Origin: an uncultured Thiotrichaceae bacterium
GTDB taxonomy: Bacteria > Pseudomonadota > Gammaproteobacteria > Thiotrichales > Thiotrichaceae
DNA: 64,000 nt
Direction of reading: 5' to 3'
Assembly: GCA_902727985.1 (NCBI GenBank)
Contig: CACVAY010000103.1
Coordinates: forward strand, 11,086 to 75,085
Below the pieces are notes generated by a model that worked only from the letters and a program-made list of their open reading frames with translations, was not told the origin of the DNA and did no database searches. Position 1 is the first letter of the stretch. Every line of letters starts with the position of its first letter. Shown in pieces: positions 32,701 through 46,585 of the stretch. The position numbers and the translations under genes are program-made.

Positions 32701-33609
32701 TTTACGAAGCATATCTGCAGCATCGCGAATTTCGCGTTCTCCTGAGAAGAAAATCAGAATATCACCGCGAGATTCTCGTTTCAGTTCATCAACCGCATCA
32801 ACGATGCCTTGGAATATATCACGATCATCTTGCTCCTCTGTTTCTGAAACTAAAGGACGATAACGAATTTCGACGGGGTAGGTTCTGCCTGAAACCTCAA
32901 TAATGGGTGCATCATTAAAATGTTTCGAGAATTTTTCAGGGTCAATTGTCGCTGAGGTAATGATCAGCTTTAGATCTTTGCGACGCGGTAACAACCATTT
33001 CAGATAGCCTAGTAGAAAATCGATGTTTAGGCTGCGTTCGTGTGCTTCATCAATAATCAAAGTATCGTATTGGGTGAGGAATCTATCCTCCTGAACTTCG
33101 GCGAGCAAAATGCCATCTGTCATGACCTTGATATAGGAATTCGCATGCGTTTTATCATGGAAACGAATCTTATAGCCGGCGGCTTGTTCGCTTTTTAATT
33201 CTTCTGCAATACGTTTTGCAACACTTTGTGCGGCAAGGCGTCGAGGCTGGGTATGGCCAATATACCCATTAAGACCAAGTCCGAGCTCAAGACACATTTT
33301 GGGTAATTGTGTGGTTTTCCCAGAGCCTGTTTCGCCACAAATGATGACGACTTGATTCTCTTTAATCGCTGTAATAATCTCTTCACGTCTTTCTGAAACA
33401 GGCAGGTTTTCAGGGTAATCAGGCGTGGGTAAATGCTGTAAGCGGGATTGGCGAGTTTTTATTGAACGCTCAATATCATGCTGTAACTTAGCTAATGTTT
33501 TTGGCGTCGAAGATTTTTTCTCGCGTATAAGACGTTGACGAAAACGGAATTGCTCTGGAAAGAGGCAATTTTTCAGCTGTTCTTCAAGTTGTTTAAGCGT
33601 TTGTCTCAC
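29749..33609 (-). CDS. hrpA: ATP-dependent RNA helicase HrpA (DEAH-box)
   Basis: 1286 aa with the motifs GETGSGKTTQLP, IIDEAHERSL, SATID, TNVAETSLTVPGI and QRSGRCGR, plus the long HrpA-specific C-terminal extension. Confidence 0.95.
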   Translation of the reverse strand: MRQTLKQLEEQLKNCLFPEQFRFRQRLIREKKSSTPKTLAKLQHDIERSIKTRQSRLQHLPTPDYPENLPVSERREEIITAIKENQVVIICGETGSGKTTQLPKMCLELGLGLNGYIGHTQPRRLAAQSVAKRIAEELKSEQAAGYKIRFHDKTHANSYIKVMTDGILLAEVQEDRFLTQYDTLIIDEAHERSLNIDFLLGYLKWLLPRRKDLKLIITSATIDPEKFSKHFNDAPIIEVSGRTYPVEIRYRPLVSETEEQDDRDIFQGIVDAVDELKRESRGDILIFFSGEREIRDAADMLRKQNYAATEILPLFARLSSQEQYRIFQAHRGQRIILSTNVAETSLTVPGIKYVIDTGQVRISRYSWRARIQRLPIERTSQASANQRSGRCGRTSDGIAIRLYSEEDFLARPAFTDPEILRTNLASVILQMTHMRLGDIAAFPFIEPPDSRQIKDGFKLLFEIHAVDKHHRLSKMGRQIARMPIDPRLARMLIEATTLKSLEAVLIIVSALSIQDPRERPLEKQQAADEKHSRFKDKHSDFIGYINLWNYFQEQRATLSQNKLRKLCKKEFISYIRMREWQDIRDQIARQLDSTLAKDWNVNEDAIHKSLLTGLLGNIGFKDEDRIYLGAHQKKFTLFPGSVLHKKPPKWILAAELVETSKLFARTVARIQPEWIEHSAKHLIKRHYSEPHWEKRSAQVGAFERITLYGITLHARRKINYGPIDPKNSRELFIRHALIYGEYETKATFFQHNRKLIRSIENLEAKSRRRDILVDEEVLYDFYDRIIPATIYNGKTFEKWRKSQEKQHADALFYKAEDLFQRDTKHIGSAAFPDQLKYSGVSLPLQYHFEPGHDHDGVTCSVPHILLSHIQPTLFDYLVPGMLEEKITNIIRALPKQTRKQFVPAPEYAKACVEAIHSSSTDSLFSTLNHQLLRMTGSTIPQEEWDKLKLPEHLVMRFEIIDEKGKTLKTGRDLLKLKGDVKHKTVESFQKIKTHALEQQGLSNWTFGDLPEYLSVNNHGIHVRAYPAIVAKKDVVDIQLFDSLLESQTAHKKGVRKLFQLRTTEQLRQLKKHISQQQKLCMWYSATGKCDELQRALVDASYDHTFLREALPRTQTDFQELLTSRQNSLLDTSKTLCHLLDPVLASHFEIHKQLKGNIKINWLEALNDMKKQMQHLIYPGFLESLDLEQLRMLPKYLKGVLRRLDKLQESETRDRGLRLQVLPLWERYTVEIKKNADIQMLSEKDLTIYRWMIEEFRISLFAQELGTQRPISAKRLNKFWQEHSTQR

Positions 33610-34874: not shown

Positions 34875-35345
34875 ATGGCATCCGATCGATTTATTTCTAC
34901 ACCCGAAGGTAATGATGCAGAACATGTAAATCTTGACGATATAAAGGTTCTGGTTGTTGATGATAGTAAAACGATTCTTCGTTCTGCCGAACTGTATCTG
35001 AAGGAAAAAGGCTGTGAAGTGAGAACGGTTGAAGATGGTTTTCAGTCACTCTCAATCATTGACGATTACCAACCTGATATTATTTTTCTTGACATCATGA
35101 TGCCACGTTTGGACGGCTATCAGACTTGCGCGATGATAAAGAGCAATGAGGAATATGCTGATATTCCCGTTATTATGCTGTCGAGCAAGCATAATTTATT
35201 TGATAAAGCCCGAGGGCGTTTGTCGGGTTCTGAAGAATATCTTACCAAACCTTTTTCTCATGATGATTTGATCAGTGCTATCAATACACACACACATACA
35301 CAAACTGATGATGCAGAAAAATTACCTGAAGAATTCTTGTTCTAA
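34875..35345 (+). CDS. pilG: CheY-like response regulator PilG
   Basis: 156 aa. It is a single REC domain with an N-terminal extension: KVLVVDDSKTILRSAE...PDIIFLDIMMPRLDGYQTCAMIK...IPVIMLSSK...EYLTKPF. It is the first gene of the pilGHIJ-chpA order. Confidence 0.85.
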   Translation: MASDRFISTPEGNDAEHVNLDDIKVLVVDDSKTILRSAELYLKEKGCEVRTVEDGFQSLSIIDDYQPDIIFLDIMMPRLDGYQTCAMIKSNEEYADIPVIMLSSKHNLFDKARGRLSGSEEYLTKPFSHDDLISAINTHTHTQTDDAEKLPEEFLF

Positions 35346-35365
35346 TGCATTGATAGGGGCTGATT

Positions 35366-35743
35366 GTGGTTGATGTACTGATTGTCGAAGATTCACCTAC
35401 AGCGTCCTTTGTTTTAAGACATATGATTGAAAGTTTGGGGTTTAGTGTTGCAATGGCATCTAATGGTTCACATGCGCTGGAAATGGCAAAGAAACAGAAG
35501 CCGGAATTGATTTTGATGGATTTGATGATGCCGATTATGGATGGTTATCAGGCAACGCGTATCTTTAAAACAAATGCTGAATTAAAGGGTGTACCCGTCG
35601 TGATCCATAGTAGTAAGAGTCAAACAACAGACAAGTTGTGGGCAAAAAAACAAGGTGCATCAGGTTTTCTTGCAAAGCCTGCCTCGAAAAGACAATTACA
35701 ACGAATGATGAATTATTTCCTTCCAAACCATGAGGTCAGCTAA
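35366..35743 (+). CDS. pilH: CheY-like response regulator PilH
   Basis: 125 aa with a GTG start. The REC domain reads VLIVEDSPTASFVLRHM...PELILMDLMMPIMDGYQATR...VPVVIHSSK...GFLAKP. Confidence 0.85.
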   Translation: MVDVLIVEDSPTASFVLRHMIESLGFSVAMASNGSHALEMAKKQKPELILMDLMMPIMDGYQATRIFKTNAELKGVPVVIHSSKSQTTDKLWAKKQGASGFLAKPASKRQLQRMMNYFLPNHEVS

Positions 35744-36245
35744 TATGTTATCACCGCATGGTCTTATTGTCGGTATGGCGTTAATTGATAAGCATAATCA
35801 ATCGCAAGAGAATTATTTATCGGGCTTGTCTGGAATTCTTGTGAAATCTCAGCAATATCATTTGTTGATCAAGAAAGAACGCATGTTGGAAATTCAAACC
35901 GTTCAGGAGATGACAAGAGCTATTGATGACCGCCGTTGGTTAACGGGCTTGATTCAGTACAATGGGCATGTGATTCCGCTGATTGAAATCAGCATGTTGC
36001 TGAATACTCAAGCATATGGTTCGGGTTTAAAAGATCGTCAAGTCATTGTTGTTAATAGCGAGATTGGCATCATTGGTTTGTTGGTCGAAAAAGTTTTAGG
36101 TTACCGGGATTTTTGGACAGATGATAAAGCGCTGGAATCGATTGATGAAAACAAAACAGGCATCATCTCTCATACATTAAACTACGCTAATAAAAAAATC
36201 TCTATTTTATCTATGAGTAGGTTGGCTAAGGAAATTAATCAATAG
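35730..36245 (+). CDS. pilI: CheW-like coupling protein PilI
   Basis: 171 aa of CheW-domain size and pattern, lying between pilH and the MCP gene. An alternative ATG at 35745 would remove the 14-nt overlap with pilH. Confidence 0.75.
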   Translation: MRSANMLSPHGLIVGMALIDKHNQSQENYLSGLSGILVKSQQYHLLIKKERMLEIQTVQEMTRAIDDRRWLTGLIQYNGHVIPLIEISMLLNTQAYGSGLKDRQVIVVNSEIGIIGLLVEKVLGYRDFWTDDKALESIDENKTGIISHTLNYANKKISILSMSRLAKEINQ

Positions 36246-36326
36246 GATAGAAAATATAGCTCTGTGAAATGCTGATGGGGTTAGCACTAATACCCCTCTA
36301 AATAATTAAAACAATAAAAAGTAATA

Positions 36327-38447
36327 ATGTCACGAAACCTATTATCATTGAGTATTTCTAGAAAATCTGTATGGATTTCGCTTGTGCTTTTATTGTTGTT
36401 ACTGAGCTTAATGATTCTTAGTTTTAGTTATTCTTACCGACAATCACTTGCAGACAATCAGCGCTTGCAAATTGTTTCAGAGATGAATTTGCTTTCTCAG
36501 CAGCTTCTAACGTCAACGGCTATTACAGTAAAAAGTGATAAGAGTTCCTTTGAACGGTTAGAGGCTCAAAGGGATGAGTTTCAGGTGAAATTTACAGAGT
36601 TGGAAACCTTGCAATTGGAATCCAGGTTTGCTGTGAAGCTTGATTCTTTAGATGAAGTTAGGGTGAGCTGGAAACCATTTTACGAACAGTTAGCGAATAT
36701 TCTGAAGCACCGAACAGCTATCAATAACACTCATGCCTTTGCAAAAACTATTTATGAAACATTACCAACAATGCAGCTGGCTGCAGAGCAGGTAGTTTTA
36801 AGGCTAGAAAAGAATAGCAGCAATACTGAGCAGTTAAAACTAGCGATCAGTCAGCTCATTTTGTTACAAAAATTAGAGAATAATTTACTTCTGATGATAG
36901 AAGGAAGAGGAAATATTGAACGGGTCATTAATAGCTTCTCCATACAGACATTGAAATTTGATGAAAAACTCAACTTATTATTGAAAGGAAGTCGTCAGAA
37001 GGGGTTAGTCGCCGTTTCAAATCGTGAAGCACTCTTTTATTTGGAGGAGATATCAGGAAAGTTAGAGGAGCTAGGTCAAGAAATTCGTTCACTATTGGAA
37101 AGCGCGACATCTTTACAAAGAATTTATGATGGAGTGAATGTGGGTGAGATATTGGGAGAGCAATTGTTTCAGGCTGTTAAAACTATGCACACGCAAATTG
37201 GGGAGCGAAAGCGCTCTACTCAGGTAATCAACTTGTCTGGTTATGTATTTGCGGCTTTGAGTTTTCTCAGTTTGATCTGGTTAGCCTATGCGCTTTTTTA
37301 TGATCATCGTGAACAACTCCGCAAGACAACAGAGGAAAATGAAAGCAATCAACAGGGTATCATGCATTTGATGAACCGTATGACCGCGTTGTCTCAGGGG
37401 GACTTAACGGTTTCTGCAAGAGTCACAAAAGATATCACAGGGTCTATTGCTGATGCGTTTAACCACACGGTAGAAGAACTGAGAGAGCTGGTGACAAAAA
37501 TCAATACAACTTCAGGCCAGTTGAATGATTATGCACAACGTGCCGATAAAACAGCAGAGGAATTATCGGATGCCAGTAAGGCGCAAAGTAATGAAGTGGT
37601 TTCCGCATCAACCACAATTAGTACGATCACGAAGAATGTTGAACAAGTTGCCACCTATGCAGTGAATTCAGCGGAGGTCGCTCAGAAATCTTTAACCATT
37701 TCCAGAGAAGGTGCACAAACCGTTCGTGAGACGCTTTCAGGTATGCATGCTATCCGAGAGCAGGTTCAAGTAACTGCGAAACGGATTAAACGTCTGAGTG
37801 AGAGTTCTCAAGAAGTGAGCCATATTTCTCAACTGATGAATGAAATTGCGGAACAGACACAAGTACTCGCGTTGAACGCCTCTATCCAAATGAGTAGTGC
37901 GGGTGATTCAGGTAAAAGTTTTGGTGGGGTTGCCGAAGAGATTCAGTTGTTAGCAAAGCAGGCAACGAATACCTCTAGAAAAGCTGAGGTCCTTGTAAAT
38001 ACCATGCAAATGGATACTCAGAAAACAGTTACTTCCATGGAGGAAACCATTTCGCATGTGGTGAAGGGTACACAGACCGCCGAAGATGCGGGGAATGCCT
38101 TAGTGGCAGTAGAGTTTGAATCTGACCGAATTGCAAAATTGATGCTGAATATTGCTCGGGTTACTAAGGAGCAACTTGATCTATCACAGGTAACGAAAAA
38201 GAAAATGGCTTCTATTCAAGAAATTACTTTGCAAGCATTTGAGAGAGTAAGTGAGACATCGCAGTTGATTAATAGCCTGACATCCACGGCAAATGAGCTT
38301 CAGGTTTCAGTTTATCGTTTCAAGTTGCCTAAATTGAAGCGAACCAATCACAATCAGCCTGCTGTGTTTAATAAGCTGCCTCAGATGAGCAAGAAAAATA
38401 CAGCAATGGAAGAGACAAAAAAAACGGCAGTGGGTGCTATTTCATAA
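36327..38447 (+). CDS. pilJ: methyl-accepting chemotaxis protein PilJ
   Basis: 706 aa. It has TM1, a large periplasmic domain of about 270 aa, TM2, a HAMP-like region and the highly conserved MCP tip ISQLMNEIAEQTQVLALNASIQMSSAGDSGKSFGGVAEEIQLLAKQ. Confidence 0.9.
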   Translation: MSRNLLSLSISRKSVWISLVLLLLLLSLMILSFSYSYRQSLADNQRLQIVSEMNLLSQQLLTSTAITVKSDKSSFERLEAQRDEFQVKFTELETLQLESRFAVKLDSLDEVRVSWKPFYEQLANILKHRTAINNTHAFAKTIYETLPTMQLAAEQVVLRLEKNSSNTEQLKLAISQLILLQKLENNLLLMIEGRGNIERVINSFSIQTLKFDEKLNLLLKGSRQKGLVAVSNREALFYLEEISGKLEELGQEIRSLLESATSLQRIYDGVNVGEILGEQLFQAVKTMHTQIGERKRSTQVINLSGYVFAALSFLSLIWLAYALFYDHREQLRKTTEENESNQQGIMHLMNRMTALSQGDLTVSARVTKDITGSIADAFNHTVEELRELVTKINTTSGQLNDYAQRADKTAEELSDASKAQSNEVVSASTTISTITKNVEQVATYAVNSAEVAQKSLTISREGAQTVRETLSGMHAIREQVQVTAKRIKRLSESSQEVSHISQLMNEIAEQTQVLALNASIQMSSAGDSGKSFGGVAEEIQLLAKQATNTSRKAEVLVNTMQMDTQKTVTSMEETISHVVKGTQTAEDAGNALVAVEFESDRIAKLMLNIARVTKEQLDLSQVTKKKMASIQEITLQAFERVSETSQLINSLTSTANELQVSVYRFKLPKLKRTNHNQPAVFNKLPQMSKKNTAMEETKKTAVGAIS

Positions 38448-38555
38448 TACATAAGGAAGTTAGAGGAGAGCTCGTTTGAGATCATTGGTATTTTAAGCGG
38501 GTGTCCCCTGTAGTTTCCTCAAATAAGAATAATAAATCATAATAATAGGTGGAAT

Positions 38556-40346
38556 ATGATTTCTGATAAGGTGGGTCTTGATACACGCGTAGGGTGGATC
38601 AGAGGTGAAATCGAGAAAACAATCGAAGACATTGAATCAAAATTGAATGACTTTGTTCAAGAAAAAGATCTTAAGATCATTGAGGAAGTTAGCAATGAAA
38701 TGCAGACTCTTGAAAAGACTTTCAAGGTGGCAGGCATTAAAGGGGTTAAAATATTGGCAATGGAAATCGTCAATGTTTTAGAGGCTATTCTGGAAAACAA
38801 GATTTCAGATTGCGGTGTGACACAAGCCGTCTTATTGCAAGCGTGTTCGCAAATTTCAGATTATATTGAGCATCTGGAAGAGGGGTATGCGGATCTACCG
38901 ATTGTTATTCTACCTATTTTGAATGAACTAAGAGCGACCTATGGTAATGACCTACTTTCAGAGGAGTTGGTATTTCTCCCTCAGGATGACAATATTGGCA
39001 ATGCTGAAATTGGTAGTGATGAGTTTGTTGATCTTCAAGGTGCGAAACGGATACAAGTTTACAAACATTTGCGTATGCACTTTCAAACCGCCTTACTCAA
39101 TAGTTATCAGGGTAAAAGCGTTCAGGCATCGCTTAAAAAAATGCAAGTGCTTAGTAATGACCTGGTTAAGATCCATCAAGCTGAGGATGTCAGGGTATTG
39201 TGGTGGTTATCAAAAGCTTTAACGGAAGCGTTGGAGCATCAGGCTTTAGACTATGGTGTAGCTGTCAAACTGGTATTGGGTTCGCTCGAACGTCTGATTC
39301 TGAAGTTTGCTTCGGATGCGCCTCTCGATTCTCATGAAGCGGCAATCGGTTTAATTAAAAAGAATCTTCTATATTACATCGGTATGGCTGAAAGAGGCTC
39401 TGCGACTGTTGATAAGGTCAAAGATACTTTTCTGCTCGATATTTATTTACCGAAAGGTGAAACTCTCGAAAAGTTAAGAAAGCATTATACGTCTCCATCA
39501 CAACAGCTGTGGAGAGCGGTTGCCGAATCCGTCAATCTTGATATTGAAGATATTATTGATGGTTACAAGCATATCGAACTCAATTATGATGAAGGCACTC
39601 TGAAATTCATTCTTGAGAAGAGTAAGAAAACGGCTTCGACGCTTGGGATGCTTGGTCTTAGTAACCTTGCCGATATTATTGAAAAGCAGATCCTTCAGTT
39701 TAATGCCTTGTCACGCGATCCCCAACGATTTCCTAACGAACAACGTTTGGAAGTTGCGACTGAATGGTTGCGGGTTAAAGATATTTTAGAGGAATATTCT
39801 GAGACGGGGCAGGATGCGACACAGTATCTATATGATCAGGATAGTGGCTATCAGGTTTCAACCTATAATGCGCGTAAGCAAGTTTTCATCATCATCAAAG
39901 ATGAACTTGCCGCTGTAGTGGAGAATTTAGATGGTTATGAAAAAGATGCGCAGTTAGGAGCCATACATGCGTCATTACAAAAATTGTCAGATATCCGTGA
40001 AGTTTTTCATTTTCTCCATCAATCAGAAGTTGAGTTGCTTTTAGATGGGGCGATTAATTTTTTACAGCAAATAGCAGGTGCTTCCGAACTTACGGAAGAA
40101 TCCAGTGATGGTTTGAAAAATGTGGCAGAAATTATTGCTTCTGTCGAACAATCGGTGCTTGCTCAAAGGAACCATACAGATCATATAACTCCGCTTGATG
40201 GCGGCTTTACGGGTTTAAGGGCGCTTGATCAAAATTATGGTCTGGATGCGTCTATACGTGATGCTTTGGATCAAGCTCAGGGTCAGGTACTAGAGCTAAA
40301 AAAATTACAGCGCCAGAACAAGTTGGAGTTGATTCTGGCGCGTTAA
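38556..40346 (+). CDS. chpA: ChpA N-terminal segment in frame 0: a FimL-like region with histidine-less Hpt-like domains, ending at TAA 40344-40346
   Basis: 596-aa ORF. Its Hpt-like helical segments carry TFKVAGIKG (about 38718-38744) and KKTASTLGMLG (about 39624-39656) where Hpt domains have H-T-[LI]-K-G. The downstream -1 frame continues it (see the cassette at 40298-40341). Confidence 0.8.
   Translation: MISDKVGLDTRVGWIRGEIEKTIEDIESKLNDFVQEKDLKIIEEVSNEMQTLEKTFKVAGIKGVKILAMEIVNVLEAILENKISDCGVTQAVLLQACSQISDYIEHLEEGYADLPIVILPILNELRATYGNDLLSEELVFLPQDDNIGNAEIGSDEFVDLQGAKRIQVYKHLRMHFQTALLNSYQGKSVQASLKKMQVLSNDLVKIHQAEDVRVLWWLSKALTEALEHQALDYGVAVKLVLGSLERLILKFASDAPLDSHEAAIGLIKKNLLYYIGMAERGSATVDKVKDTFLLDIYLPKGETLEKLRKHYTSPSQQLWRAVAESVNLDIEDIIDGYKHIELNYDEGTLKFILEKSKKTASTLGMLGLSNLADIIEKQILQFNALSRDPQRFPNEQRLEVATEWLRVKDILEEYSETGQDATQYLYDQDSGYQVSTYNARKQVFIIIKDELAAVVENLDGYEKDAQLGAIHASLQKLSDIREVFHFLHQSEVELLLDGAINFLQQIAGASELTEESSDGLKNVAEIIASVEQSVLAQRNHTDHITPLDGGFTGLRALDQNYGLDASIRDALDQAQGQVLELKKLQRQNKLELILAR
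40298..40341 (+). promoter_or_regulatory. candidate -1 ribosomal frameshift cassette (slippery A_AAA_AAA + spacer + stem-loop) inside chpA
   Basis: In frame 0 the codons read CTA AAA AAA TTA, with A7 at 40298-40304. A 5-nt spacer (TTACA) follows. Then a perfect 9-bp stem forms between GCGCCAGAA (40310-40318) and TTCTGGCGC (40333-40341). Three more pairs are possible (40319-21 with 40329-31). The frame-0 stop lies 3 nt after the stem. Confidence 0.45.
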
Positions 40347-43300
40347 ATCCTCCACAGGATGAAAAAGAAGAAATAACTCCAGAAGATAGTTTTGCCAATG
40401 AGCTGCTGAGCATCTTTAAAGATGAAGCGCACGAAAACTACGAAGCACTGCGGCACAATTTTAAGGAATGGAAAGCCAGCGCTTATTCAGTCGCATTTTT
40501 GATGGAGTTTCGTCGCGCATGTCATACGCTCAAAGGCAGTGGCAGAATGGTTGGTGCTGTTGTACTTGGGGAATTATTTTGGGAGTATGAGAATCTTCTA
40601 AATCAGGTACATGAGGGGAAAATTAAAGTATCTAAGGAGCTGGAGTTAAAACTACAGCGGTTACTTGAATATCTCGATGAACATGAAGATGAGCTACTTT
40701 ATGCGAAGGAGGTGAATACAGCAGTTAGTGAGCTCATTCTTGATGCACAAAAGTTTGCACAAGTTGAAAATAAGACAGTGGATTCGCTTCCTAAAGGTAA
40801 AGAGGTTGTTGAGAAGCTGGTAGAAGAACAAGCTCCAGATCCCGTAGTGTCCATTTTTTTGGAAGAGTTATTGGAGTTATCTGATGTCTTTGAAACAAGC
40901 GTACAAGCTTTACACACGGATGCTCAAGATCATGGCGCTTTGAATGATGCTAAACGACATATGCATACCATCAAAGGCGGTGCACGCATGTCAGGGTTTT
41001 CTGACTTAGGGAATCTTTGTCATGTCACGGAGAGTGTTCTTGAGGAGTTTGAGGAGCGTTCATTCATTGATGAGGAGCTTGTTTTAGCGTGTATTCAAAA
41101 TGTTAGTGATATGTTATTTGTGGTTTCAGATGAGTTGGCACAGGGAAAACCAGAGCCTGATTTTGAACATTTGCTTGTTGATTTGGAAAATGTTTTTGAC
41201 AGCATCGAGCCTCAGAGCCAGCCTGTTCCAGAAGATGATTTCTCTTTAGAAGAGTCTGTTACGCCTCATGTTTTGGAGGCTGCTGAGCTTGAGAGTCAGG
41301 AGGGAGAAAAGGGGCCAGAACAATTTGACGGAACACATCAATTTGCGGCTATAAAAGCAGAAGAGCATGTTCAGGAAGAGAAGCTAATCCTTTCTTCTGG
41401 TTTGAAAAAGCATGAGCCAGAAGCTGATGACCCCATGCGCGAGATCTTTCTTGAAGAGCTGGCTGAATTGTTAGAGGATTTTGAGGGTGTCACACAAACC
41501 TTGGTGAATGCGCCTGATGATGCAGAATCGATTGCCAATGCCGAACGTTATTTACATACCATCAAAGGTGGTTCAAACATGGTCGGATTGCCAGCAATAG
41601 GCGATTTAACCCATGCTGGTGAATCTTTGTTAAATCAATTATCTAATGGTAAGGTTGATAGTAACGAAGCGGTTATTAATTGCTTGCAAGCTGTCAGTGA
41701 CCAATTAACGATGATGTATGAGTCTGCATTAGCAGGGCAAGAACCTGCACCTGCTTGGGATTTGTTAAGAGAGTTGGATGATCTTGGTGCATTGGAAGTT
41801 GCGCTGAATGACACGGCGCAGACTATTGCGCAAGAGGCAGCTGTTGATGATGCCGAACGGGCTGGTACAACAGCACCTAAAGAGGTTGTGGTTGCGGGAA
41901 TTGATTTTACTATTGATCAAGCATCGAGTGATATTGAACGTTTATTAGAAAATGTTACAAAACAGGTTGATATCAAGAAATACCTCCCTAGTGTAGTTGA
42001 GGAGTCTTCCAGCAACCAAGCTGAATCTACTCAATTTAGTTCATCTATCCGTGTGCCTGCTCCTCTCATTAGTAATCTTATTACGACTACCAATGAATGG
42101 GGGCATCAGAATATTCGTTTGAATGAACAATTTGAAGATAATCAGTTAAAAATTAAGGAGCTTAAACGTACAAGTACGCGTTTGCGTGAGCAAATTCGTG
42201 CCTTAGAATTGGAAACCGATTCTATGATTGATGCAGGTGTGGATGTCTCAGGGACTGGGAATGTCTCAGGTTTTCCAATGATTGAGGGAGAGCAGCATTT
42301 TGATCCTTTGGAAATGGATGGGTATTCTGAGTTACATCAACAGTCACGTGCGCTTGCCGAAAGTATGGATGATCTGTTTAGCCTTACTGATGGTTTGGAT
42401 TATGGTCTACGTCAGATGGGAGAGACACAACAAATACAGGAAAGAACGTGTAAAACCCTTCAAGAAGGGTTGATTAGTACCAGAATGACGAAGGTCTCAG
42501 GTTTAGTTTCGCGTTTAAAACGTATTATTCGTCAAGTATCTGCTGAATTAGGCAAGCATGTGGAGCTTGAAGTTGCTGATGAGTCAGCGGAAATGGATAG
42601 AACCATTCTGGAGAAAATTACCTCTTCTATCGAACACCTCATACGGAACTCTTTAGCGCACGGTATTGAAACACCAAAAGTGCGCCGTGCAAGTGGTAAG
42701 GAGCAGGTTGGTAAAATCTTTCTGAACATTGAACGGGATGAGCCGGAAATTGTTATTCGTTTACGCGACGATGGTGCGGGGATCAATGTCAAGAAGCTTA
42801 GAGAAAAAGCGCTTGAAAAAGGCTTAATAACTACAAATGAGCAGTTACGACGCGGTGAGATTTATCAATTGATTTTGCGCTCGGGTGTCTCTACCGCCAA
42901 ATCTATCAGCCAGGTGGCGGGTAGGGGTGTGGGTATGGATGTCGTCAATAATGAGGTTAACGCCTTGGGTGGCAGTATTGTCATAGATTCTGAAGAAGGG
43001 AAGTTTACGGAGTTTGTCTTACGTCTCCCTTATAACTTGGCGACGAATCAAGTGATGCTGGTAGAGGTTGGTGATGAGTTACTAGCCATTGCTGTTGCCA
43101 AATTAAAGGGTATGCAACGTTTTTCTGAAGCGGAAATTCAAAAGGTGTATGACTCTGAGAGCAAGATGCTTACCTATATGGGGGATTCTTACCGACTCAA
43201 TTATCTGGCACAAACTCTGGGAGCAGGAGAGAGAATACCTGCTGAATCTGGGTATACCAAACCCATTATTTTCTTTGATGAAAACAACCAGCGGGTAGCC

Positions 43301-43882
43301 TATGAGGTTGATGAAATTAAAGGTAACCGAGAAGTCATGTTGAAGCCGTTAGGGTCGCTATTCACGGATTCTCCGTTGCTATCATCGGCAACCGTTTTAG
43401 GGGGGGGGCAGATTGTCTTGTTGCTGAACGCTCATGAGTTGATTCGCCTCGGCATCCAGGGTGAGACGTTAGTAAATAAGTATATTGTGACCCAAGATGT
43501 TGTTGAACAACCTATTGTGATGGTTATTGATGACTCAATCACGGTTCGCAAGATAACAGAAAGCCTTTTGGTTTCTCTAGATTATCAGGTTTTGACGGCA
43601 AGTGATGGTGTCAATGCTTTGGAGGTTTTGGGTGAACAATTACCCGATTTAATTTTGCTTGATATTGAAATGCCAAGAATGGATGGCTTTGAATTACTAG
43701 AAACGCTACGGGCAACTCAGGAGTGGAGGTATATTCCTGTCATTATGGTTTCTTCGCGGTCGGGCGCAAAACATCGTGGACATGCTGAAAAATTGGGAGC
43801 CAATGGTTTTATCGGAAAACCATGGGAAGCTAAACAGCTGGAAAAATATATTTCTCAATGTTTACAAGAGGGGGTGAGTTAA
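40304..43882 (+). CDS. chpA: ChpA core in the -1 frame: three His-containing Hpt domains, a CheA-type kinase, a CheW-like domain and a C-terminal receiver
   Basis: This frame is open from 40262, and the track starts it at TTG 40499. The three Hpt motifs are RRACHTLKGSGRMVG, KRHMHTIKGGARMSG and ERYLHTIKGGSNMVG. The kinase boxes are N box IEHLIRNSLAHGIE, G1 LRDDGAGINV and G2 GRGVGMDVV. A CheW-like region follows (LLVEVGDELLAIAV...), then a REC domain (IVMVIDDSITVRK...DLILLDIEMPRMDGFELL...IPVIMVSSR...GFIGKP). The first Hpt helices (ELLSIFKDEAHENYEALRHNF) lie upstream of 40499, so the 5' boundary is the frameshift point rather than 40499. Confidence 0.85.
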   Translation: MTAPEQVGVDSGALNPPQDEKEEITPEDSFANELLSIFKDEAHENYEALRHNFKEWKASAYSVAFLMEFRRACHTLKGSGRMVGAVVLGELFWEYENLLNQVHEGKIKVSKELELKLQRLLEYLDEHEDELLYAKEVNTAVSELILDAQKFAQVENKTVDSLPKGKEVVEKLVEEQAPDPVVSIFLEELLELSDVFETSVQALHTDAQDHGALNDAKRHMHTIKGGARMSGFSDLGNLCHVTESVLEEFEERSFIDEELVLACIQNVSDMLFVVSDELAQGKPEPDFEHLLVDLENVFDSIEPQSQPVPEDDFSLEESVTPHVLEAAELESQEGEKGPEQFDGTHQFAAIKAEEHVQEEKLILSSGLKKHEPEADDPMREIFLEELAELLEDFEGVTQTLVNAPDDAESIANAERYLHTIKGGSNMVGLPAIGDLTHAGESLLNQLSNGKVDSNEAVINCLQAVSDQLTMMYESALAGQEPAPAWDLLRELDDLGALEVALNDTAQTIAQEAAVDDAERAGTTAPKEVVVAGIDFTIDQASSDIERLLENVTKQVDIKKYLPSVVEESSSNQAESTQFSSSIRVPAPLISNLITTTNEWGHQNIRLNEQFEDNQLKIKELKRTSTRLREQIRALELETDSMIDAGVDVSGTGNVSGFPMIEGEQHFDPLEMDGYSELHQQSRALAESMDDLFSLTDGLDYGLRQMGETQQIQERTCKTLQEGLISTRMTKVSGLVSRLKRIIRQVSAELGKHVELEVADESAEMDRTILEKITSSIEHLIRNSLAHGIETPKVRRASGKEQVGKIFLNIERDEPEIVIRLRDDGAGINVKKLREKALEKGLITTNEQLRRGEIYQLILRSGVSTAKSISQVAGRGVGMDVVNNEVNALGGSIVIDSEEGKFTEFVLRLPYNLATNQVMLVEVGDELLAIAVAKLKGMQRFSEAEIQKVYDSESKMLTYMGDSYRLNYLAQTLGAGERIPAESGYTKPIIFFDENNQRVAYEVDEIKGNREVMLKPLGSLFTDSPLLSSATVLGGGQIVLLLNAHELIRLGIQGETLVNKYIVTQDVVEQPIVMVIDDSITVRKITESLLVSLDYQVLTASDGVNALEVLGEQLPDLILLDIEMPRMDGFELLETLRATQEWRYIPVIMVSSRSGAKHRGHAEKLGANGFIGKPWEAKQLEKYISQCLQEGVS
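43400..43408 (+). repeat. G9 homopolymer inside the chpA coding sequence
   Basis: GGGGGGGGG encodes Gly-Gly-Gly in ...SSATVLGGGQIVLLL... within the CheW-like domain. It is the longest G/C run I saw in the window. Confidence 0.9.
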
Positions 43883-43883
43883 T

Positions 43884-44330
43884 ATGAGCTTATTAATGGA
43901 TATTCAATGTCATGTTCTGCCGATTGAACAGGGTAATTTGCTTATTCCATCTTCCTTGGTGGTTGATGAAATAGTGGTGGATGTTACTAGTGAAACACAT
44001 GAGTTCTCGTGGAGAAATAGAACCATCAAGTTGGTAAGTTATTCTGAGGTTCGTAAAGCTGCTAGTGAGGCAAAGCAACCTTATCGGGCCGTTGTTCTTC
44101 GCTCCTTGTCTACTGTGAAAGAGTTACCATTTTATGCGTTGGCAATAGAAGGTTTTTCTCATTCGGTGACGGCCAATCAAAATAACTTGGTGCTTAGCGA
44201 TCAGAAAACCTGTGAAATCACGACGTGTGCCGCCAAGATCGGCAGTCTAGTGTGTATGATCCCAGATTTGCCCATGATAGAGCAGAGAGTCCTTAGTTGT
44301 TATTATCAGAGTACATTGGTCTCAGCTTAA
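43884..44330 (+). CDS. CheW-like protein (ChpC-like)
   Basis: 148 aa. Its ATG lies 1 nt after the chpA stop, so it is translationally coupled. The CheW-like pattern is VLPIEQGNLLIPSSLVVDEIV...AVVLRS...FYALAIEGFSH. Confidence 0.7.
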   Translation: MSLLMDIQCHVLPIEQGNLLIPSSLVVDEIVVDVTSETHEFSWRNRTIKLVSYSEVRKAASEAKQPYRAVVLRSLSTVKELPFYALAIEGFSHSVTANQNNLVLSDQKTCEITTCAAKIGSLVCMIPDLPMIEQRVLSCYYQSTLVSA

Positions 44331-44350: not shown

Positions 44351-46585
44351 TTATTGGCAATTAGTCCACCAGCATTGGTCAGCTTCTTCTTGAAATTGTA
44401 ATGTGGCATCAAACTTTGGTGATTCTGTTCGTGGCTTTCTTAGATGCTCTTTTAAGCCAAAATTACCGAAGCGGTAGTATGACTGTGGCATGGTATAGAG
44501 TGTAAAGAGCGTTGCTCCTTGACCAAATAATCCCTTCCAGGCATTGAGAAGCTGTAGATAGCGGTCTTTCATGCGTGGGTCTCGGTTAGCGGCATTGAAT
44601 AATTGTCTCAACCTTGGTTTGTCACTTTCTGTAATGGCATTCCCGAATATGCCCGTTACTAAGTGTTGTCCACCTTCGTAAGTCACTAATTCGAGGTTGT
44701 AGGCTGCCATTTCATCAAGGTGGTTTGAAATAGTCTGAATGGTACTCTCAAGTGCTTTTACATCAACAGAACCCGGTTGGTCAATGACATCGAAAATATC
44801 ATCAACAGTTGTGGCCTCTAGCAATGTTTTTGGTGCGTCAGGGCAAATGCTTCTCTTTGCACAGCCGAAGAAATAGGGGGCGATTGCAACTGCATCAATG
44901 TCATCAGTAGAGATGTTTTTGAGCATTTCTCGAGTGAGAACTTTATCACCGATGAATGAGCCTAAGACGCGAACCACACGAGCACTATCATTTTCAAAAG
45001 CCTCAGAAAAAAGATTAAAAATCTCTACTGAACGTTGGCTATGATAACGCAATCGGGCAAAATATCTGGTATCTCGATTTGACCCAATATAGTCTGAGGG
45101 TACGTCACCCAGATCAAGTGCTAAGCCCTTGGTTGTTATGTATTCATGGGCCGCGAAGCCCGAGTTCCAAACTTCGTTTGAGTATTCAATATAGACTTTG
45201 ATTGACGTATCAAGTTGGCTGTAAAGGGCTGTTGACAGTTGTGTGACATAGTCATCGCTCGCAACATGGGGTATGTTTATCCAGATATCACGTTTTACGG
45301 TATTGGCAAGAGCAATAATGACTTCTATGGGCACGCCCTTATGCTCGATAGCTGCGGTTTCACCATCATTTCCTCCCCAGAATGCATCATCTAATGTGGC
45401 TCGGTTTTCCCAGGTGCCAGCTTCTGGGGGGCAGTTCTCTGGATCATGACAAAGATCTTTGAGACTGGCTTCCATAAGATTCATCATCCGAATGGTTTTG
45501 AAGTTACGAAGAAACAGCAGGTAATCGGGATTGAAAATGATGGTATTGCGGTCAGCAGATAATTGTTGGGCGAAACTTTCATAGCTGCTCGCTGTTGGGC
45601 AATCAGCTTGTGAATCGACGTATACGAATGGGTTTGAAATGTCGCTTGAATCTGTACAAGTGCCGCCAGGCATTGCAATACGAATATTTTTGATATAGCT
45701 ATCGGGAGTAATATTTTTGATATTCATGTTGATGGCATTGGTTTCAGAAGCCGCAGCCTCATTCGTTTCATCAAAGTCACTGAGCTGAAGGTTGAGAATA
45801 TATTTGTTTTCATTAGGAACTTTTATCGCAGAGCCGACAAGAGGTTCTCCACTAAATTCAAGTAAGCCATTACCCTCATACATGACAGTATATTTACCAT
45901 CTGGTATGGAGTCTCTTAGGTTGCCTTGCAGAAGCTTTGTTTTAATAAACCCAAGATCAGGGTCTAATTCTGTTGGCCAGCCGTTACTATCAAAAAGGGT
46001 ATTCGCATCAACGAGCGTGTTTTCATCATTATATTTTTTGTTAAATTCTTTGAAGGGGCGGGCTGTCCTGAAAATATCAGCAAAAGGCATGGGGTTGCCT
46101 GCCGTGACTGCGCCCGCTTGCGGGGTTTCTGTATTTACTCCCAAAGAAGGTTCAAAGGAGAGTTCTGGCATAAGGCCAGTTGCTTGATAAAGTGTTTTTA
46201 AAACAATGTCAGAGGGAATTGTTGCGCTTGACGTACCACCCTCTGTATTCGTGCTGCTGACGGTAATATCACCATAACTTTGAGCGCTCGTACTGCTGAT
46301 GGTGAAATCGCCGTTTTGGTCGGCAGTTGTTGTCTGTTGGCTACCACTGGGGAAGGTGATCGTAATGGTTGTGCCTGCCTCAGCTCTTCCTTGAACGGAG
46401 ATTAAACCATTTGAATCAGCATTCGTGCTTACTACACTTGGTTCTGTAGGTGTGTTTGGGGTTGTAGGTGTGCTTGGATTTGTGTTAGTACTATCGCCAT
46501 CTCCACTATCACCGTCACTACCTCCACAGGAAGCTAATCCAAGTGATAGCATGAAAACACAGGTATATAGAATTCTCATTAGCAT
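44351..46585 (-). CDS. large lipoprotein: Ig-like domain plus a putative TIM-barrel glycoside-hydrolase-like domain
   Basis: 744 aa with a lipobox (FMLSLGLASCGG) and a Ser/Thr/Pro/Asp linker (GDSTNTNPSTPTTPNTPTEPS). An Ig-like segment follows (ISVQGRAEAGTTITITFPSGSQQTTTADQNGDFTI). Then comes a domain of about 600 aa containing IWINIPH...VYIEYSNEVWN, which resembles the clan GH-A acid/base motif. The enzyme call is tentative. Confidence 0.6.
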   Translation of the reverse strand: MLMRILYTCVFMLSLGLASCGGSDGDSGDGDSTNTNPSTPTTPNTPTEPSVVSTNADSNGLISVQGRAEAGTTITITFPSGSQQTTTADQNGDFTISSTSAQSYGDITVSSTNTEGGTSSATIPSDIVLKTLYQATGLMPELSFEPSLGVNTETPQAGAVTAGNPMPFADIFRTARPFKEFNKKYNDENTLVDANTLFDSNGWPTELDPDLGFIKTKLLQGNLRDSIPDGKYTVMYEGNGLLEFSGEPLVGSAIKVPNENKYILNLQLSDFDETNEAAASETNAINMNIKNITPDSYIKNIRIAMPGGTCTDSSDISNPFVYVDSQADCPTASSYESFAQQLSADRNTIIFNPDYLLFLRNFKTIRMMNLMEASLKDLCHDPENCPPEAGTWENRATLDDAFWGGNDGETAAIEHKGVPIEVIIALANTVKRDIWINIPHVASDDYVTQLSTALYSQLDTSIKVYIEYSNEVWNSGFAAHEYITTKGLALDLGDVPSDYIGSNRDTRYFARLRYHSQRSVEIFNLFSEAFENDSARVVRVLGSFIGDKVLTREMLKNISTDDIDAVAIAPYFFGCAKRSICPDAPKTLLEATTVDDIFDVIDQPGSVDVKALESTIQTISNHLDEMAAYNLELVTYEGGQHLVTGIFGNAITESDKPRLRQLFNAANRDPRMKDRYLQLLNAWKGLFGQGATLFTLYTMPQSYYRFGNFGLKEHLRKPRTESPKFDATLQFQEEADQCWWTNCQ

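What the first reader, a model, noticed from the sequence alone, without database searches (positions are those of the whole stretch)
40262..40346. chpA is split into two overlapping frames exactly at a dnaX/IS3-style -1 frameshift cassette
Seen in the sequence:
- The 596-aa ORF (38556-40346, frame 0) and the kinase-encoding ORF ending at 43882 (the -1 frame) overlap.
- The -1 frame is open from 40262, after TGA at 40259-61. It reads ...KKITAPEQVGVDSGALNPPQDEKEEITPEDSFANELLSIFKDEAHENYEALRHNFKEWKASAYSVAFLMEFRRACHTLKGSG.
- The first helices of an Hpt domain therefore lie upstream of the TTG at 40499 that the ORF track uses, so an independent start there is not credible.
- Inside the 85-nt overlap sits A7 (40298-40304), phased in frame 0 as CTA AAA AAA TTA. 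This is an X_XXY_YYZ heptamer, A_AAA_AAA.
- After a 5-nt spacer there is a perfect 9-bp stem, GCGCCAGAA (40310-18) with TTCTGGCGC (40333-41), extendable by 3 bp.
- The frame-0 stop, TAA at 40344, follows directly.
- Weak SD-like AGGGT/AGGT motifs lie about 10-19 nt upstream (40279-40288).

Established knowledge: a Lys-Lys slippery heptamer, a 5-7 nt spacer and a stem-loop (sometimes with an upstream SD-like element) form the architecture of the -1 frameshift sites in dnaX and in IS3-family transposases.

Inference: standard decoding would give a 596-aa N-terminal protein. A -1 slip would give a 1775-aa full-length ChpA (583 + 1192 codons), with junction ...LELKK/ITAPEQ.... I know of no description of recoding in a Pil-Chp kinase.

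Alternatives: a homopolymer sequencing error (A8 would fuse the frames), a real inactivating or phase-variable indel, or transcriptional slippage.
Basis: partly seen in the sequence, partly recalled or inferred. Interest (0 to 1): 0.8.

Follow-up and report, generated by a model that had tools for sequence, protein, structure and literature searches.

The report
Conserved -1 frameshift site in chpA
The pilus-control kinase gene chpA of this sulfur bacterium and its whole family is written in two overlapping reading frames joined at a conserved ribosome-slipping signal, so one gene very probably makes both a short scaffold protein and the full-length kinase; no description of this was found.

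Summary

- **Not an error.** Two independent run-level assemblies carry the same A7 run. 42 of 44 related Thiotrichaceae loci, including six cultured type strains, keep a ~600-aa ORF followed by the ChpA body in the -1 frame. None is in frame at the run. More distant gammaproteobacteria have one continuous 2,000-2,500-aa ChpA that aligns colinearly.
- **No alternative start.** No conserved start codon exists for the downstream frame, yet that frame stays open and protein-conserved upstream of any start.
- **Cassette conserved.** In 13 loci of the window's clade (43-84% protein identity) these features are fixed to the nucleotide:
  - the heptamer A_AAA_AAR;
  - a 5-nt spacer;
  - a 9-bp stem with two compensatory pairs;
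  - a zero-frame stop 39 nt after the heptamer.
- **Short product is real.** The zero-frame tail is itself under protein selection. The short product corresponds to FimL, a separate paralogue in Pseudomonas.
- **Relatives differ.** The Thiothrix/Thiolinea clades carry A9-A10 runs without a hairpin, which suggests RNA-polymerase slippage, the alternation known from dnaX.
- **Novelty.** I found no earlier description. This is a new member of a known kind.

The parts
38556..40346 (+). Zero-frame ORF of 596 aa: the FimL-like N-terminal module of ChpA, produced by standard decoding.
   Evidence: Homologues carry the precomputed Pfam families FimL_2nd and FimL_C. It matches residues ~10-540 of 1,700-2,600-aa ChpA proteins. 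The AF2 model is all-helical with weak CheA-P1-like matches.
40259..40261 (+). TGA, the last stop in the -1 frame. It sets the 5' limit of the shift window.
40279..40288 (+). Weak SD-like purine motif (AGGGTCAGGT), ending 9 nt upstream of the heptamer.
   Evidence: -4.5 kcal/mol to the anti-SD, not unusual in the window. The equivalent position is stronger by duplex energy (-6 to -9 kcal/mol) in L001-L006, and SD-like strings are visible there in L061-L063.
40298..40304 (+). Slippery heptamer A_AAA_AAA (Lys582-Lys583 codons), in X_XXY_YYZ phase.
   Evidence: It is A_AAA_AAA or A_AAA_AAG in all 13 near-clade loci. K582 and K583 are invariant within an otherwise variable linker.
40305..40309 (+). 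5-nt spacer (TTACA).
   Evidence: The length is constant in all 13 near-clade loci.
40310..40341 (+). Stimulatory hairpin: 9-bp stem 40310-18 / 40333-41 with a 14-nt loop.
   Evidence: -17.9 kcal/mol, z = -4.06; 96.6% of cells paired in 13 sequences, two pairs with compensatory changes, covariation 0.191 against 0.093 shuffled (0/500).
40344..40346 (+). Zero-frame stop TAA, 39 nt after the heptamer.
   Evidence: The distance is the same in all 13 near-clade loci.
40304..43882 (+). -1 frame coding region (1192 codons plus stop): linker, 3 Hpt domains, HATPase_c, CheW and receiver. This is the ChpA body, reached by re-reading A40304.
40385..40525 (+). Helix 1 through the phospho-acceptor His (CAT 40523-25) of the first Hpt domain. 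It is mostly upstream of the first canonical start (TTG 40499 / ATG 40502).
   Evidence: The peptide is conserved in L053/L055 while the Met is not.
34875..38447 (+). Upstream Pil-Chp genes: two receiver proteins (PilG/PilH-like), a CheW (PilI-like) and an MCP (PilJ-like).
   Evidence: The order is the same in L053 and L055.

Best explanation
chpA in this Thiotrichaceae genome is a recoded gene that makes two proteins.

**Proposed mechanism (inferred).**
1. Ribosomes start at ATG 38556 and read 583 codons.
2. The two Lys codons of A_AAA_AAA (40298-40304) occupy the P and A sites. The hairpin 5 nt downstream (40310-41) sits at the mRNA entrance.
3. A fraction of ribosomes slip one base back, with both tRNA-Lys re-pairing on AAA.
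4. Slipped ribosomes read on in the -1 frame to 43882. This gives a 1775-aa ChpA: a FimL-like N-terminal module, a linker, three Hpt domains, the kinase, CheW and a receiver.
5. Ribosomes that do not slip read 13 more codons and stop at TAA 40344. This gives a 596-aa FimL-like protein with its own conserved C-terminal tail.

**Shown.**
- The anatomy of the site.
- Its conservation and covariation across relatives.
- The absence of a conserved start codon for the downstream frame.
- Selection on both reading frames in the overlap.
- Colinearity with continuous ChpA proteins in other families.

**Inferred.**
- That slippage happens on the ribosome rather than in RNA polymerase.
- Its efficiency.
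- That the short product acts like Pseudomonas FimL, a scaffold of the Pil-Chp system.
For: **The layout is conserved across the family.**
- 42 of 44 Thiotrichaceae loci that cover the site have the ChpA body in the -1 frame, overlapping by 61-133 nt.
- These include Thiofilum flexile DSM 14609, Thiothrix fructosivorans, T. caldifontis, T. eikelboomii, T. lacustris and Thiolinea disciformis.
- All 63 protein homologues at 28% identity or more are 369-648 aa; none is fused.

**The ancestral state is one ORF.**
- L047 and L049-L052 have single ORFs of 2045-2465 aa that align colinearly. The junction falls in their linker after about 600-717 aa.
- In an exhaustive search, hits outside the split clade are mostly 1,700-2,600 aa and match at their N-terminus.

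**The slip motif is conserved and in phase in every split locus**. K582 and K583 are invariant or nearly so in an otherwise variable tail.

**The cassette is fixed to the nucleotide in 13 near-clade loci**: heptamer, 5-nt spacer, 9-bp stem, and a stop 39 nt after the heptamer.
- 96.6% of stem cells are paired.
- Pair 1 is CG/GC/UG/UA and pair 4 is CG/UG/UA.
- The covariation score is 0.191 against 0.093 shuffled (0/500) and at most 0.077 in the slid controls.

**Nucleotide conservation jumps in the cassette.** It is 0.72-0.85 there against 0.35-0.66 upstream. At third codon positions it is 0.54-0.81 against 0.28-0.54.

**There is no conserved start codon.**
- 17 of 42 loci have none at least 40 aa before the first Hpt His, and 11 have none at all.
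- The -1 frame peptide upstream of the window's TTG/ATG is conserved in L053 and L055, with an in-frame indel. The Met itself is not conserved.

**Both products look functional.** In the overlap, variation falls on zero-frame third positions and the zero-frame tail is conserved as protein.

**A natural control.** L032 has lost the run (AAT AAG AAA AAA). Its ChpA is in the same frame, after two stop codons, and begins with ATG ATG.

**The A7 run is reproducible** in two independent assemblies.

**The hairpin is the most stable fold** downstream of any of the 94 heptamers in the window.
Against: - There are no reads, Ribo-seq data, proteomics or reporter assays. The trans-frame protein has not been observed.
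- The stem lies in doubly coding sequence, so part of its invariance could come from protein constraint in two frames. Only two of nine pairs covary.
- The SD-like element is weak in the window.
- An A7 run also allows some RNA-polymerase slippage.
- Relatives with A9-A10 runs have no conserved hairpin. The mechanism is therefore not uniform across the family.
- The exceptions come from MAGs of uncertain quality: L015 (+1 frame), and L016, L018 and L019 (interrupted downstream ORF).
Confidence: 0.8

Rival explanations
1. The frame change is made by RNA polymerase, not the ribosome. Slippage on the A run adds one A to a fraction of transcripts, and standard translation of those transcripts gives full-length ChpA.
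For: - Most relatives (Thiothrix, Thiolinea, Thiofilum) carry A9-A10 runs and have no conserved downstream hairpin.
- Runs of 9 A or T slip efficiently in bacteria and are used this way in Thermus dnaX (PMC5009743).
- L015, with A9 in place of A10, would still be rescued by heterogeneous slippage.
Against: - The window has only A7, and ten near-clade loci have A6G. Both are below the ~9-nt run length cited for efficient slippage.
- This same clade conserves a hairpin exactly 5 nt downstream, with compensatory changes. That is the signature of a ribosomal stimulator, and no role for it in polymerase slippage is known.
Confidence: 0.1
2. There are two ordinary genes: a fimL-like gene ending at 40346 and a separate chpA. 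The chpA would be translated from its own start, either TTG 40499 / ATG 40502 or a non-canonical codon, with no recoding.
For: - Gene callers annotate two genes in all relatives.
- L032 appears to have exactly this arrangement, with an ATG start.
- FimL is a separate protein in Pseudomonas (PMC3019171).
Against: - No start is conserved. 11 of 42 loci have none before the Hpt1 His.
- The window's ATG is Thr or Gln in the closest relatives.
- A start at 40499 would remove helix 1 of Hpt1.
- The -1 frame stays open and conserved for 60-370 nt upstream of any start.
- This rival does not explain the invariant in-phase heptamer, the fixed spacer, the covarying stem or the constant -1 relationship.
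- No start codon lies near the TAA that could serve for reinitiation.
Confidence: 0.07
3. The split is an artefact or a defect: a homopolymer sequencing error, a pseudogene, or a phase-variable on/off homopolymer.
For: - Homopolymers are error-prone.
- L015 differs from L012 by one A.
- L016 has Ns inside the run.
Against: - The A7 run is identical in two independent assemblies and in the 84%-identity relatives.
- 0 of 44 split-clade genomes are in frame at the run. About a third would be expected under phase variation.
- Downstream ORFs of about 940-1,860 aa remain intact across lineages that share only ~30% identity.
- The site shows the strongest local purifying selection, not decay.
Confidence: 0.02

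Closest known systems
E. coli dnaX -1 programmed ribosomal frameshift (tau/gamma)
   Same: - It uses a Lys-Lys heptamer. A_AAA_AAG is the exact dnaX motif and occurs in ten near-clade loci.
- It has a stem-loop a few nucleotides downstream and an SD-like element about 10 nt upstream.
- One gene yields two nested products (PMC5009743; the stimulator layout is from established knowledge).
   Different: - In E. coli dnaX the shifted frame stops after one codon and gives the short product. Here the zero frame stops and the shift gives the long product.
- The SD-like element is weak in the window.
- The gene is unrelated.
IS3-family transposase OrfA/OrfAB frameshift (IS911, IS150, IS3)
   Same: - The ORF architecture matches: a short upstream ORF with an independent role, and a -1 overlap.
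- It uses an A_AAA_AAG-type heptamer with a 3' structure.
- The frameshift fuses the upstream product to a downstream catalytic part (PMC5009743; PMC4066793).
   Different: - This is not a mobile element. It is a single-copy chromosomal signalling gene in a conserved pilG-H-I-J-chpA operon.
- It is conserved at family depth.
Thermus thermophilus dnaX transcriptional slippage (A9 run)
   Same: - The Thiothrix, Thiolinea and Thiofilum chpA genes carry A9-A10 runs without a hairpin at the homologous site.
- The chpA family therefore seems to alternate between a ribosomal and a polymerase solution, as dnaX does (PMC5009743).
   Different: - The window itself has A7 plus a hairpin.
- Slippage in the relatives is inferred, not shown.
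E. coli copA -1 frameshift that makes the CopA(Z) chaperone
   Same: The logic is the same. Recoding releases an N-terminal module as a separate protein, and that module is encoded by a separate gene in other bacteria (PMC5009743).
   Different: - In copA the frameshift gives the short product.
- The module and the pathway are different.
Pseudomonas aeruginosa FimL and ChpA
   Same: - FimL is homologous to the N-terminal 563 aa of the 2477-aa ChpA (PMC3019171).
- The slip site here is at residue 583, at that same boundary.
- The domain content and operon context match the Pil-Chp system.
   Different: - In Pseudomonas, FimL is a separate paralogous gene and ChpA is one continuous ORF.
- Here the FimL-like protein and ChpA share one start codon and 583 residues.

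Membership tests
Bacterial programmed -1 ribosomal frameshift site (dnaX / IS3 type) | Two ORFs overlap, with the downstream one in the -1 frame. | tested here: met
   85-nt overlap in the window, and a -1 relationship in 42 of 44 related loci.
Bacterial programmed -1 ribosomal frameshift site (dnaX / IS3 type) | An in-phase X_XXY_YYZ slippery heptamer lies inside the overlap. | tested here: met
   A_AAA_AAA or A_AAA_AAG in phase in all 13 near-clade loci.
Bacterial programmed -1 ribosomal frameshift site (dnaX / IS3 type) | A 3' stimulatory RNA structure lies 5-9 nt downstream and is supported by covariation. | tested here: met
   9-bp stem after a 5-nt spacer, 96.6% of cells paired, two compensatory pairs, and above both the shuffled and the slid controls.
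Bacterial programmed -1 ribosomal frameshift site (dnaX / IS3 type) | A 5' SD-like stimulator lies about 10 nt upstream (dnaX-specific, optional). | tested here: inconclusive
   weak in the window (-4.5 kcal/mol), stronger by duplex energy in L001-L006 (-6 to -9 kcal/mol). SD-like strings are also visible at that position in L061-L063. It may instead reflect conserved Glu/Gly codons.
Bacterial programmed -1 ribosomal frameshift site (dnaX / IS3 type) | Sequence conservation is enhanced at the signal relative to the flanking coding sequence. | tested here: met
   third-position identity is 0.54-0.81 in the cassette against 0.28-0.54 upstream.
Bacterial programmed -1 ribosomal frameshift site (dnaX / IS3 type) | The trans-frame protein is made in vivo and depends on the heptamer and the stem. 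| not testable with these tools
   This needs Ribo-seq, mass spectrometry, western blots or reporter assays.
ChpA (Pil-Chp hybrid CheA-type kinase) | Multiple Hpt domains plus HATPase_c, CheW and a C-terminal receiver, encoded after pilG/H/I/J. | tested here: met
   three Hpt stretches, HATPase_c, CheW, Response_reg; CheA models, below the equivalog cut-offs; operon context.
FimL | A protein of about 560-600 aa homologous to the N-terminal region of ChpA. | tested here: met
   - Precomputed Pfam families FimL_2nd and FimL_C on the homologues.
- A match to the N-terminal ~540 aa of long ChpA proteins.
- The definition is from PMC3019171.
- The local Pfam copy gave no FimL hit.
FimL | Encoded by its own gene, separate from chpA. 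| tested here: not met
   It shares its start codon and 583 codons with chpA. It works like FimL but is not a separate fimL gene.
Transcriptional slippage site (Thermus dnaX type) | A homopolymer run of about 9 or more A or T. | tested here: not met
   The window has A7. The feature is met in the Thiothrix, Thiolinea and Thiofilum relatives, which have A9-A10.
Phase-variable homopolymer (contingency locus) | Run length varies among close strains and switches the ORF on and off. | tested here: not met
   The A7 run is identical in independent assemblies and in the 84%-identity relatives. 0 of 44 loci are in frame at the run.
Any Rfam RNA family | A match at or near the gathering score. | tested here: not met
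   the best E-value is 0.74, far below the gathering score; only one tRNA in the whole window.

The most novel reading that the evidence does not exclude
chpA of a family-level clade (Thiothrix, Thiolinea, Thiofilum and marine Thiotrichaceae) is an obligatorily recoded gene. It sets a fixed ratio between a free FimL-like scaffold and the full kinase. Sub-clades have exchanged a dnaX-type ribosomal frameshift cassette (A_AAA_AAR plus hairpin) for RNA-polymerase slippage on A9-A10. That would make it a second cellular gene family, after dnaX, to alternate between the two mechanisms. It would also show that recoding and gene duplication (Pseudomonas fimL) are alternative evolutionary routes to the same pair of proteins.
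Probability: 0.45. Interest if true: 0.8.

Novelty: new member of a known kind. Interest (0 to 1): 0.72.

Why it matters
- **A rare class gains a member.** Conserved programmed frameshifts in non-mobile bacterial genes are few (prfB, dnaX, copA, csoS2 and a handful more). This would add a signalling gene, with more than 40 genomes of comparative support.
- **Current annotation is wrong.** The relatives are annotated as a hypothetical protein followed by an N-terminally truncated kinase with arbitrary start codons.
- **It links two Pseudomonas proteins.** FimL and ChpA would be two outputs of one gene here. This suggests that the free N-terminal module and the kinase are needed in a set ratio.
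- **It offers a natural series for studying how recoding signals evolve:** a continuous ORF, a heptamer with hairpin, an A9-A10 run, and two separate genes.
- **It is directly testable** in cultured Thiothrix or Thiolinea strains, or with reporters in E. coli.

Tried and rejected
- **Local Pfam and NCBIfam scans of the 596-aa product** gave no family. The FimL assignment rests on precomputed Pfam hits and on homology to ChpA N-termini.
- **A PDB sequence-profile search** gave only spurious occludin coiled-coil hits.
- **Foldseek on the AF2 model** gave CheA P1/Hpt matches with good target TM-scores (0.7-0.82) but non-significant E-values. I use this only as weak support.
- **Rfam** has no matching family.
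Extra near-clade loci came from exact-protein look-ups instead.
- **A possible pseudoknot** (loop TGGAG 40324-28 with CTCCA 40350-54) is not conserved in L053, L055 or L001-L006, judged by inspection. I dropped it.
- **A conserved hairpin after the A9-A10 runs** was looked for and not found.
- **ATT 40304 as a non-canonical start:** the equivalent codon is GTT, GCA or GCT in other near-clade loci. Rejected.
- **Termination-reinitiation at TAA 40344:** no start codon lies in the ChpA frame nearby. The ATG at 40359 is in frame 0. Rejected.
- **Literature searches** for chpA, FimL, CheA or Thiothrix together with frameshifting found nothing relevant. Neither did the GeneTack survey or the 2016 recoding review. 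The library lacks most subscription-journal papers, so absence is not proof.
Full report
**1. The observation**

Reading 40140-40560 and listing the ORFs confirms every coordinate in the finding.
- The 596-aa ORF runs from 38556 to 40346.
- The -1 frame is closed by TGA at 40259-61 and is then open to 43882.
- A7 at 40298-40304 is phased CTA AAA AAA TTA.
- A 5-nt spacer precedes the perfect 9-bp stem 40310-18 / 40333-41.
- TAA lies at 40344.

The hairpin folds at -17.9 kcal/mol, with z = -4.06 and no shuffle folding as well.

The -1 frame has no ATG, GTG or TTG before TTG 40499 / ATG 40502. Those codons lie 8 and 7 codons before the phospho-acceptor His of the first Hpt domain. Helix 1 of that domain would therefore be lost with an independent start.

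Pfam finds three Hpt stretches, HATPase_c, CheW and a receiver in the -1 ORF. The genes upstream encode two receivers, a CheW and a PilJ-like MCP. This is a Pil-Chp operon.

A Lys-Lys heptamer alone is not remarkable in this 40% G+C sequence: there are 94 against about 85 expected. Among those 94, however, this one has the most stable downstream fold.

**2. The split is real and old**

The window's 596-aa protein occurs identically in two separately assembled sequencing runs. The DNA across 40230-40520 is identical in both.

A protein search returned 63 homologues down to 28% identity. All are 369-648 aa, come from Thiotrichaceae, Thiothrix or Thiolinea, and none is fused.

A scan of one genome per species gave 52 loci.
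- Of the 44 split-clade loci that cover the site, 42 have the ChpA body in the -1 frame, overlapping by 61-133 nt.
- 39 of those 42 have a downstream ORF of at least about 940 aa or one that runs to the contig end.
- They include six cultured type strains.

Five more distant loci carry one continuous ORF of 2045-2465 aa: Cellvibrionaceae, Granulosicoccaceae and one deep Thiotrichaceae MAG. These align colinearly with the conceptual frameshift products, and the junction falls in their acidic linker after about 600-717 residues.

An exhaustive HMMER search agrees. Only the closest hits are about 600 aa. Beyond them the query mostly matches residues ~10-540 of 1,700-2,600-aa proteins.

The continuous gene is therefore the common state. 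The split has been maintained across lineages that now share about 30% identity. This excludes sequencing error and decay. Because none of the 44 loci is in frame at the run, it also excludes an on/off homopolymer.

**3. The signal is what is conserved**

In the C-terminal tail of the short protein almost nothing is conserved except Lys-Lys at 582-583.

At the DNA level every split locus has an in-phase A-rich slip motif.

In the window's own clade I examined 13 loci at 43-84% protein identity. They show A_AAA_AAA (3 loci) or A_AAA_AAG (10 loci), a 5-nt spacer, the 9-bp stem, and a zero-frame stop exactly 39 nt after the heptamer.

Stem statistics:

| Measure | Value |
|---|---|
| Cells paired | 96.6% |
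| Pair 1 | CG, GC, UG, UA |
| Pair 4 | CG, UG, UA |
| Covariation score | 0.191 |
| Shuffled control | 0.093 (0 of 500 reach the observed score) |
| Slid controls | at most 0.077 |

Mean pairwise nucleotide identity rises to 0.72-0.85 in the cassette, against 0.35-0.66 in the 200 nt upstream. At third codon positions it is 0.54-0.81 against 0.28-0.54.

An SD-like element sits 8-12 nt upstream. By duplex energy it is strong in L001-L006 (-6 to -9 kcal/mol) but weak in the window (-4.5 kcal/mol). SD-like strings are also visible at that position in L061-L063. I treat it as unproven for the window.

**4. No independent start**

Across 42 loci there is no conserved start codon in the -1 frame.
- 17 loci have none at least 40 aa upstream of the first Hpt His.
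- 11 have none at all between the run and that His.

Yet the frame stays open for up to about 370 nt before any start.

In the two nearest relatives the window's Met (FLMEF) is Thr or Gln. The peptide upstream of it (EEITPEDSFANELL.IFKEEA.ENY) is conserved, and the linker carries an in-frame one-codon indel. The sequence upstream of the supposed start is therefore translated.

One locus, L032, has lost the run (AAT AAG AAA AAA). There ChpA is in the same frame, after two stops, and begins ATG ATG. This natural control shows what an independent chpA gene looks like.

**5. Both products appear to matter**

In the overlap, substitutions concentrate at zero-frame third codon positions. The zero-frame tail is better conserved as protein than the -1 reading. 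In the Thiolinea-like group the figures are 0.80 against 0.49, with the motif TLYQKLRNQRLL. The near clade has RQ.K.E.ILA. The short protein therefore has a selected C-terminus and is not a by-product.

In P. aeruginosa, FimL is homologous to the N-terminal 563 residues of the 2477-aa ChpA (PMC3019171). The slip site here is at residue 583. Homologues carry the Pfam FimL_2nd and FimL_C families.

An AF2 model (pLDDT 79) is all-helical. It gives CheA-P1-like matches with TM-scores of 0.7-0.82 but weak E-values.

My inference is that standard decoding gives a FimL-like scaffold and that slippage gives full ChpA.

**6. Mechanism**

For the window I favour ribosomal -1 slippage with confidence 0.8. 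The reasons are the in-phase heptamer of the most shift-prone bacterial class, the fixed 5-nt spacer, and a covarying hairpin. The run is only A7 or A6G, short of the ~9-nt runs cited for efficient polymerase slippage.

The architecture is that of IS3 OrfA/OrfAB, with the zero frame stopping soon after the site and the long product made by shifting. The signals are those of E. coli dnaX (PMC5009743).

In the Thiothrix, Thiolinea and Thiofilum clades the site is an A9 or A10 run with no conserved downstream structure. That fits RNA-polymerase slippage as in Thermus dnaX (PMC5009743). This part is inference.

**7. Novelty**

Full-text searches combining chpA, FimL, CheA or Thiothrix with frameshifting found nothing relevant. 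Neither the GeneTack survey, including its supplements, nor the 2016 recoding review mentions chemotaxis kinases. No Rfam family matches.

The mechanism is of a known kind and the gene is new to it. I classify the finding as a new member of a known kind.

**8. Limits**

All the evidence is comparative.
- The trans-frame protein, its abundance and the site of slippage are untested.
- The stem lies in doubly coding sequence and only two of its pairs covary.
- Several exceptions come from low-coverage MAGs: L015, L016, L018 and L019.

Noticed in passing
L032:6670-6880: This dolphin-oral MAG has lost the A run (AAT AAG AAA AAA). Its ChpA body is in the same frame as the fimL-like ORF, after two stop codons, and starts with ATG ATG. 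It looks like a lineage that resolved the recoded gene into two ordinary genes.
   Followed up: partly
L015:7690-7810 (compare L012): The run is A9 where the sister locus L012 has A10. This puts ChpA in the +1 frame. It is either a homopolymer assembly error in a co-assembled MAG or real length variation that only heterogeneous transcriptional slippage could rescue.
   Followed up: partly
L007-L046, the A9/A10 runs about 60-80 nt before the zero-frame stop: The Thiothrix, Thiolinea and Thiofilum loci have A9 (phase 0, preceded by T, which makes a -1 frame TAA at the run) or A10 (phase 2, often preceded by a -1 frame TGA). No conserved hairpin follows. The -1 frame therefore opens almost exactly at the run.
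   Followed up: partly
window 40305-40343 and the homologous tails in L007-L046: The zero-frame tail after the slip site is conserved as a peptide: RQ.K.E.ILA in the near clade and (P)STLYQKLRNQRLL in the Thiolinea/Thiothrix clades. Its function is unknown. It might be a binding motif specific to the short product.
   Followed up: partly
window 60577-60625 (+): AAAAAAG is followed by a -17.6 kcal/mol hairpin, the second most stable after any heptamer in the window. It lies inside a giant ORF that is open from 58717 to the window end (at least 1761 aa). The heptamer is out of X_XXY_YYZ phase and the -1 frame stops 6 codons later. This is probably chance.
   Followed up: partly
window 38448-38555 and 43884-44330: pilJ is followed directly by chpA, with no CheR (pilK) homologue between them. 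The gene after chpA encodes 148 aa with no Pfam or NCBIfam hit, so no CheB or CheW was recognised there. The cluster seems to lack the adaptation enzymes of the Pseudomonas Pil-Chp operon.
   Followed up: no
window 40324-40328 with 40350-40354: Loop TGGAG could pair with downstream CTCCA to form an H-type pseudoknot over the zero-frame stop. The pairing is not conserved in the nearest relatives.
   Followed up: yes
window 29749-33609 (-) and 44351-46585 (-): Large ORFs flank the operon: one of 1286 aa, and one of 744 aa with a bacterial Ig (Big_6) domain. I did not examine them.
   Followed up: no
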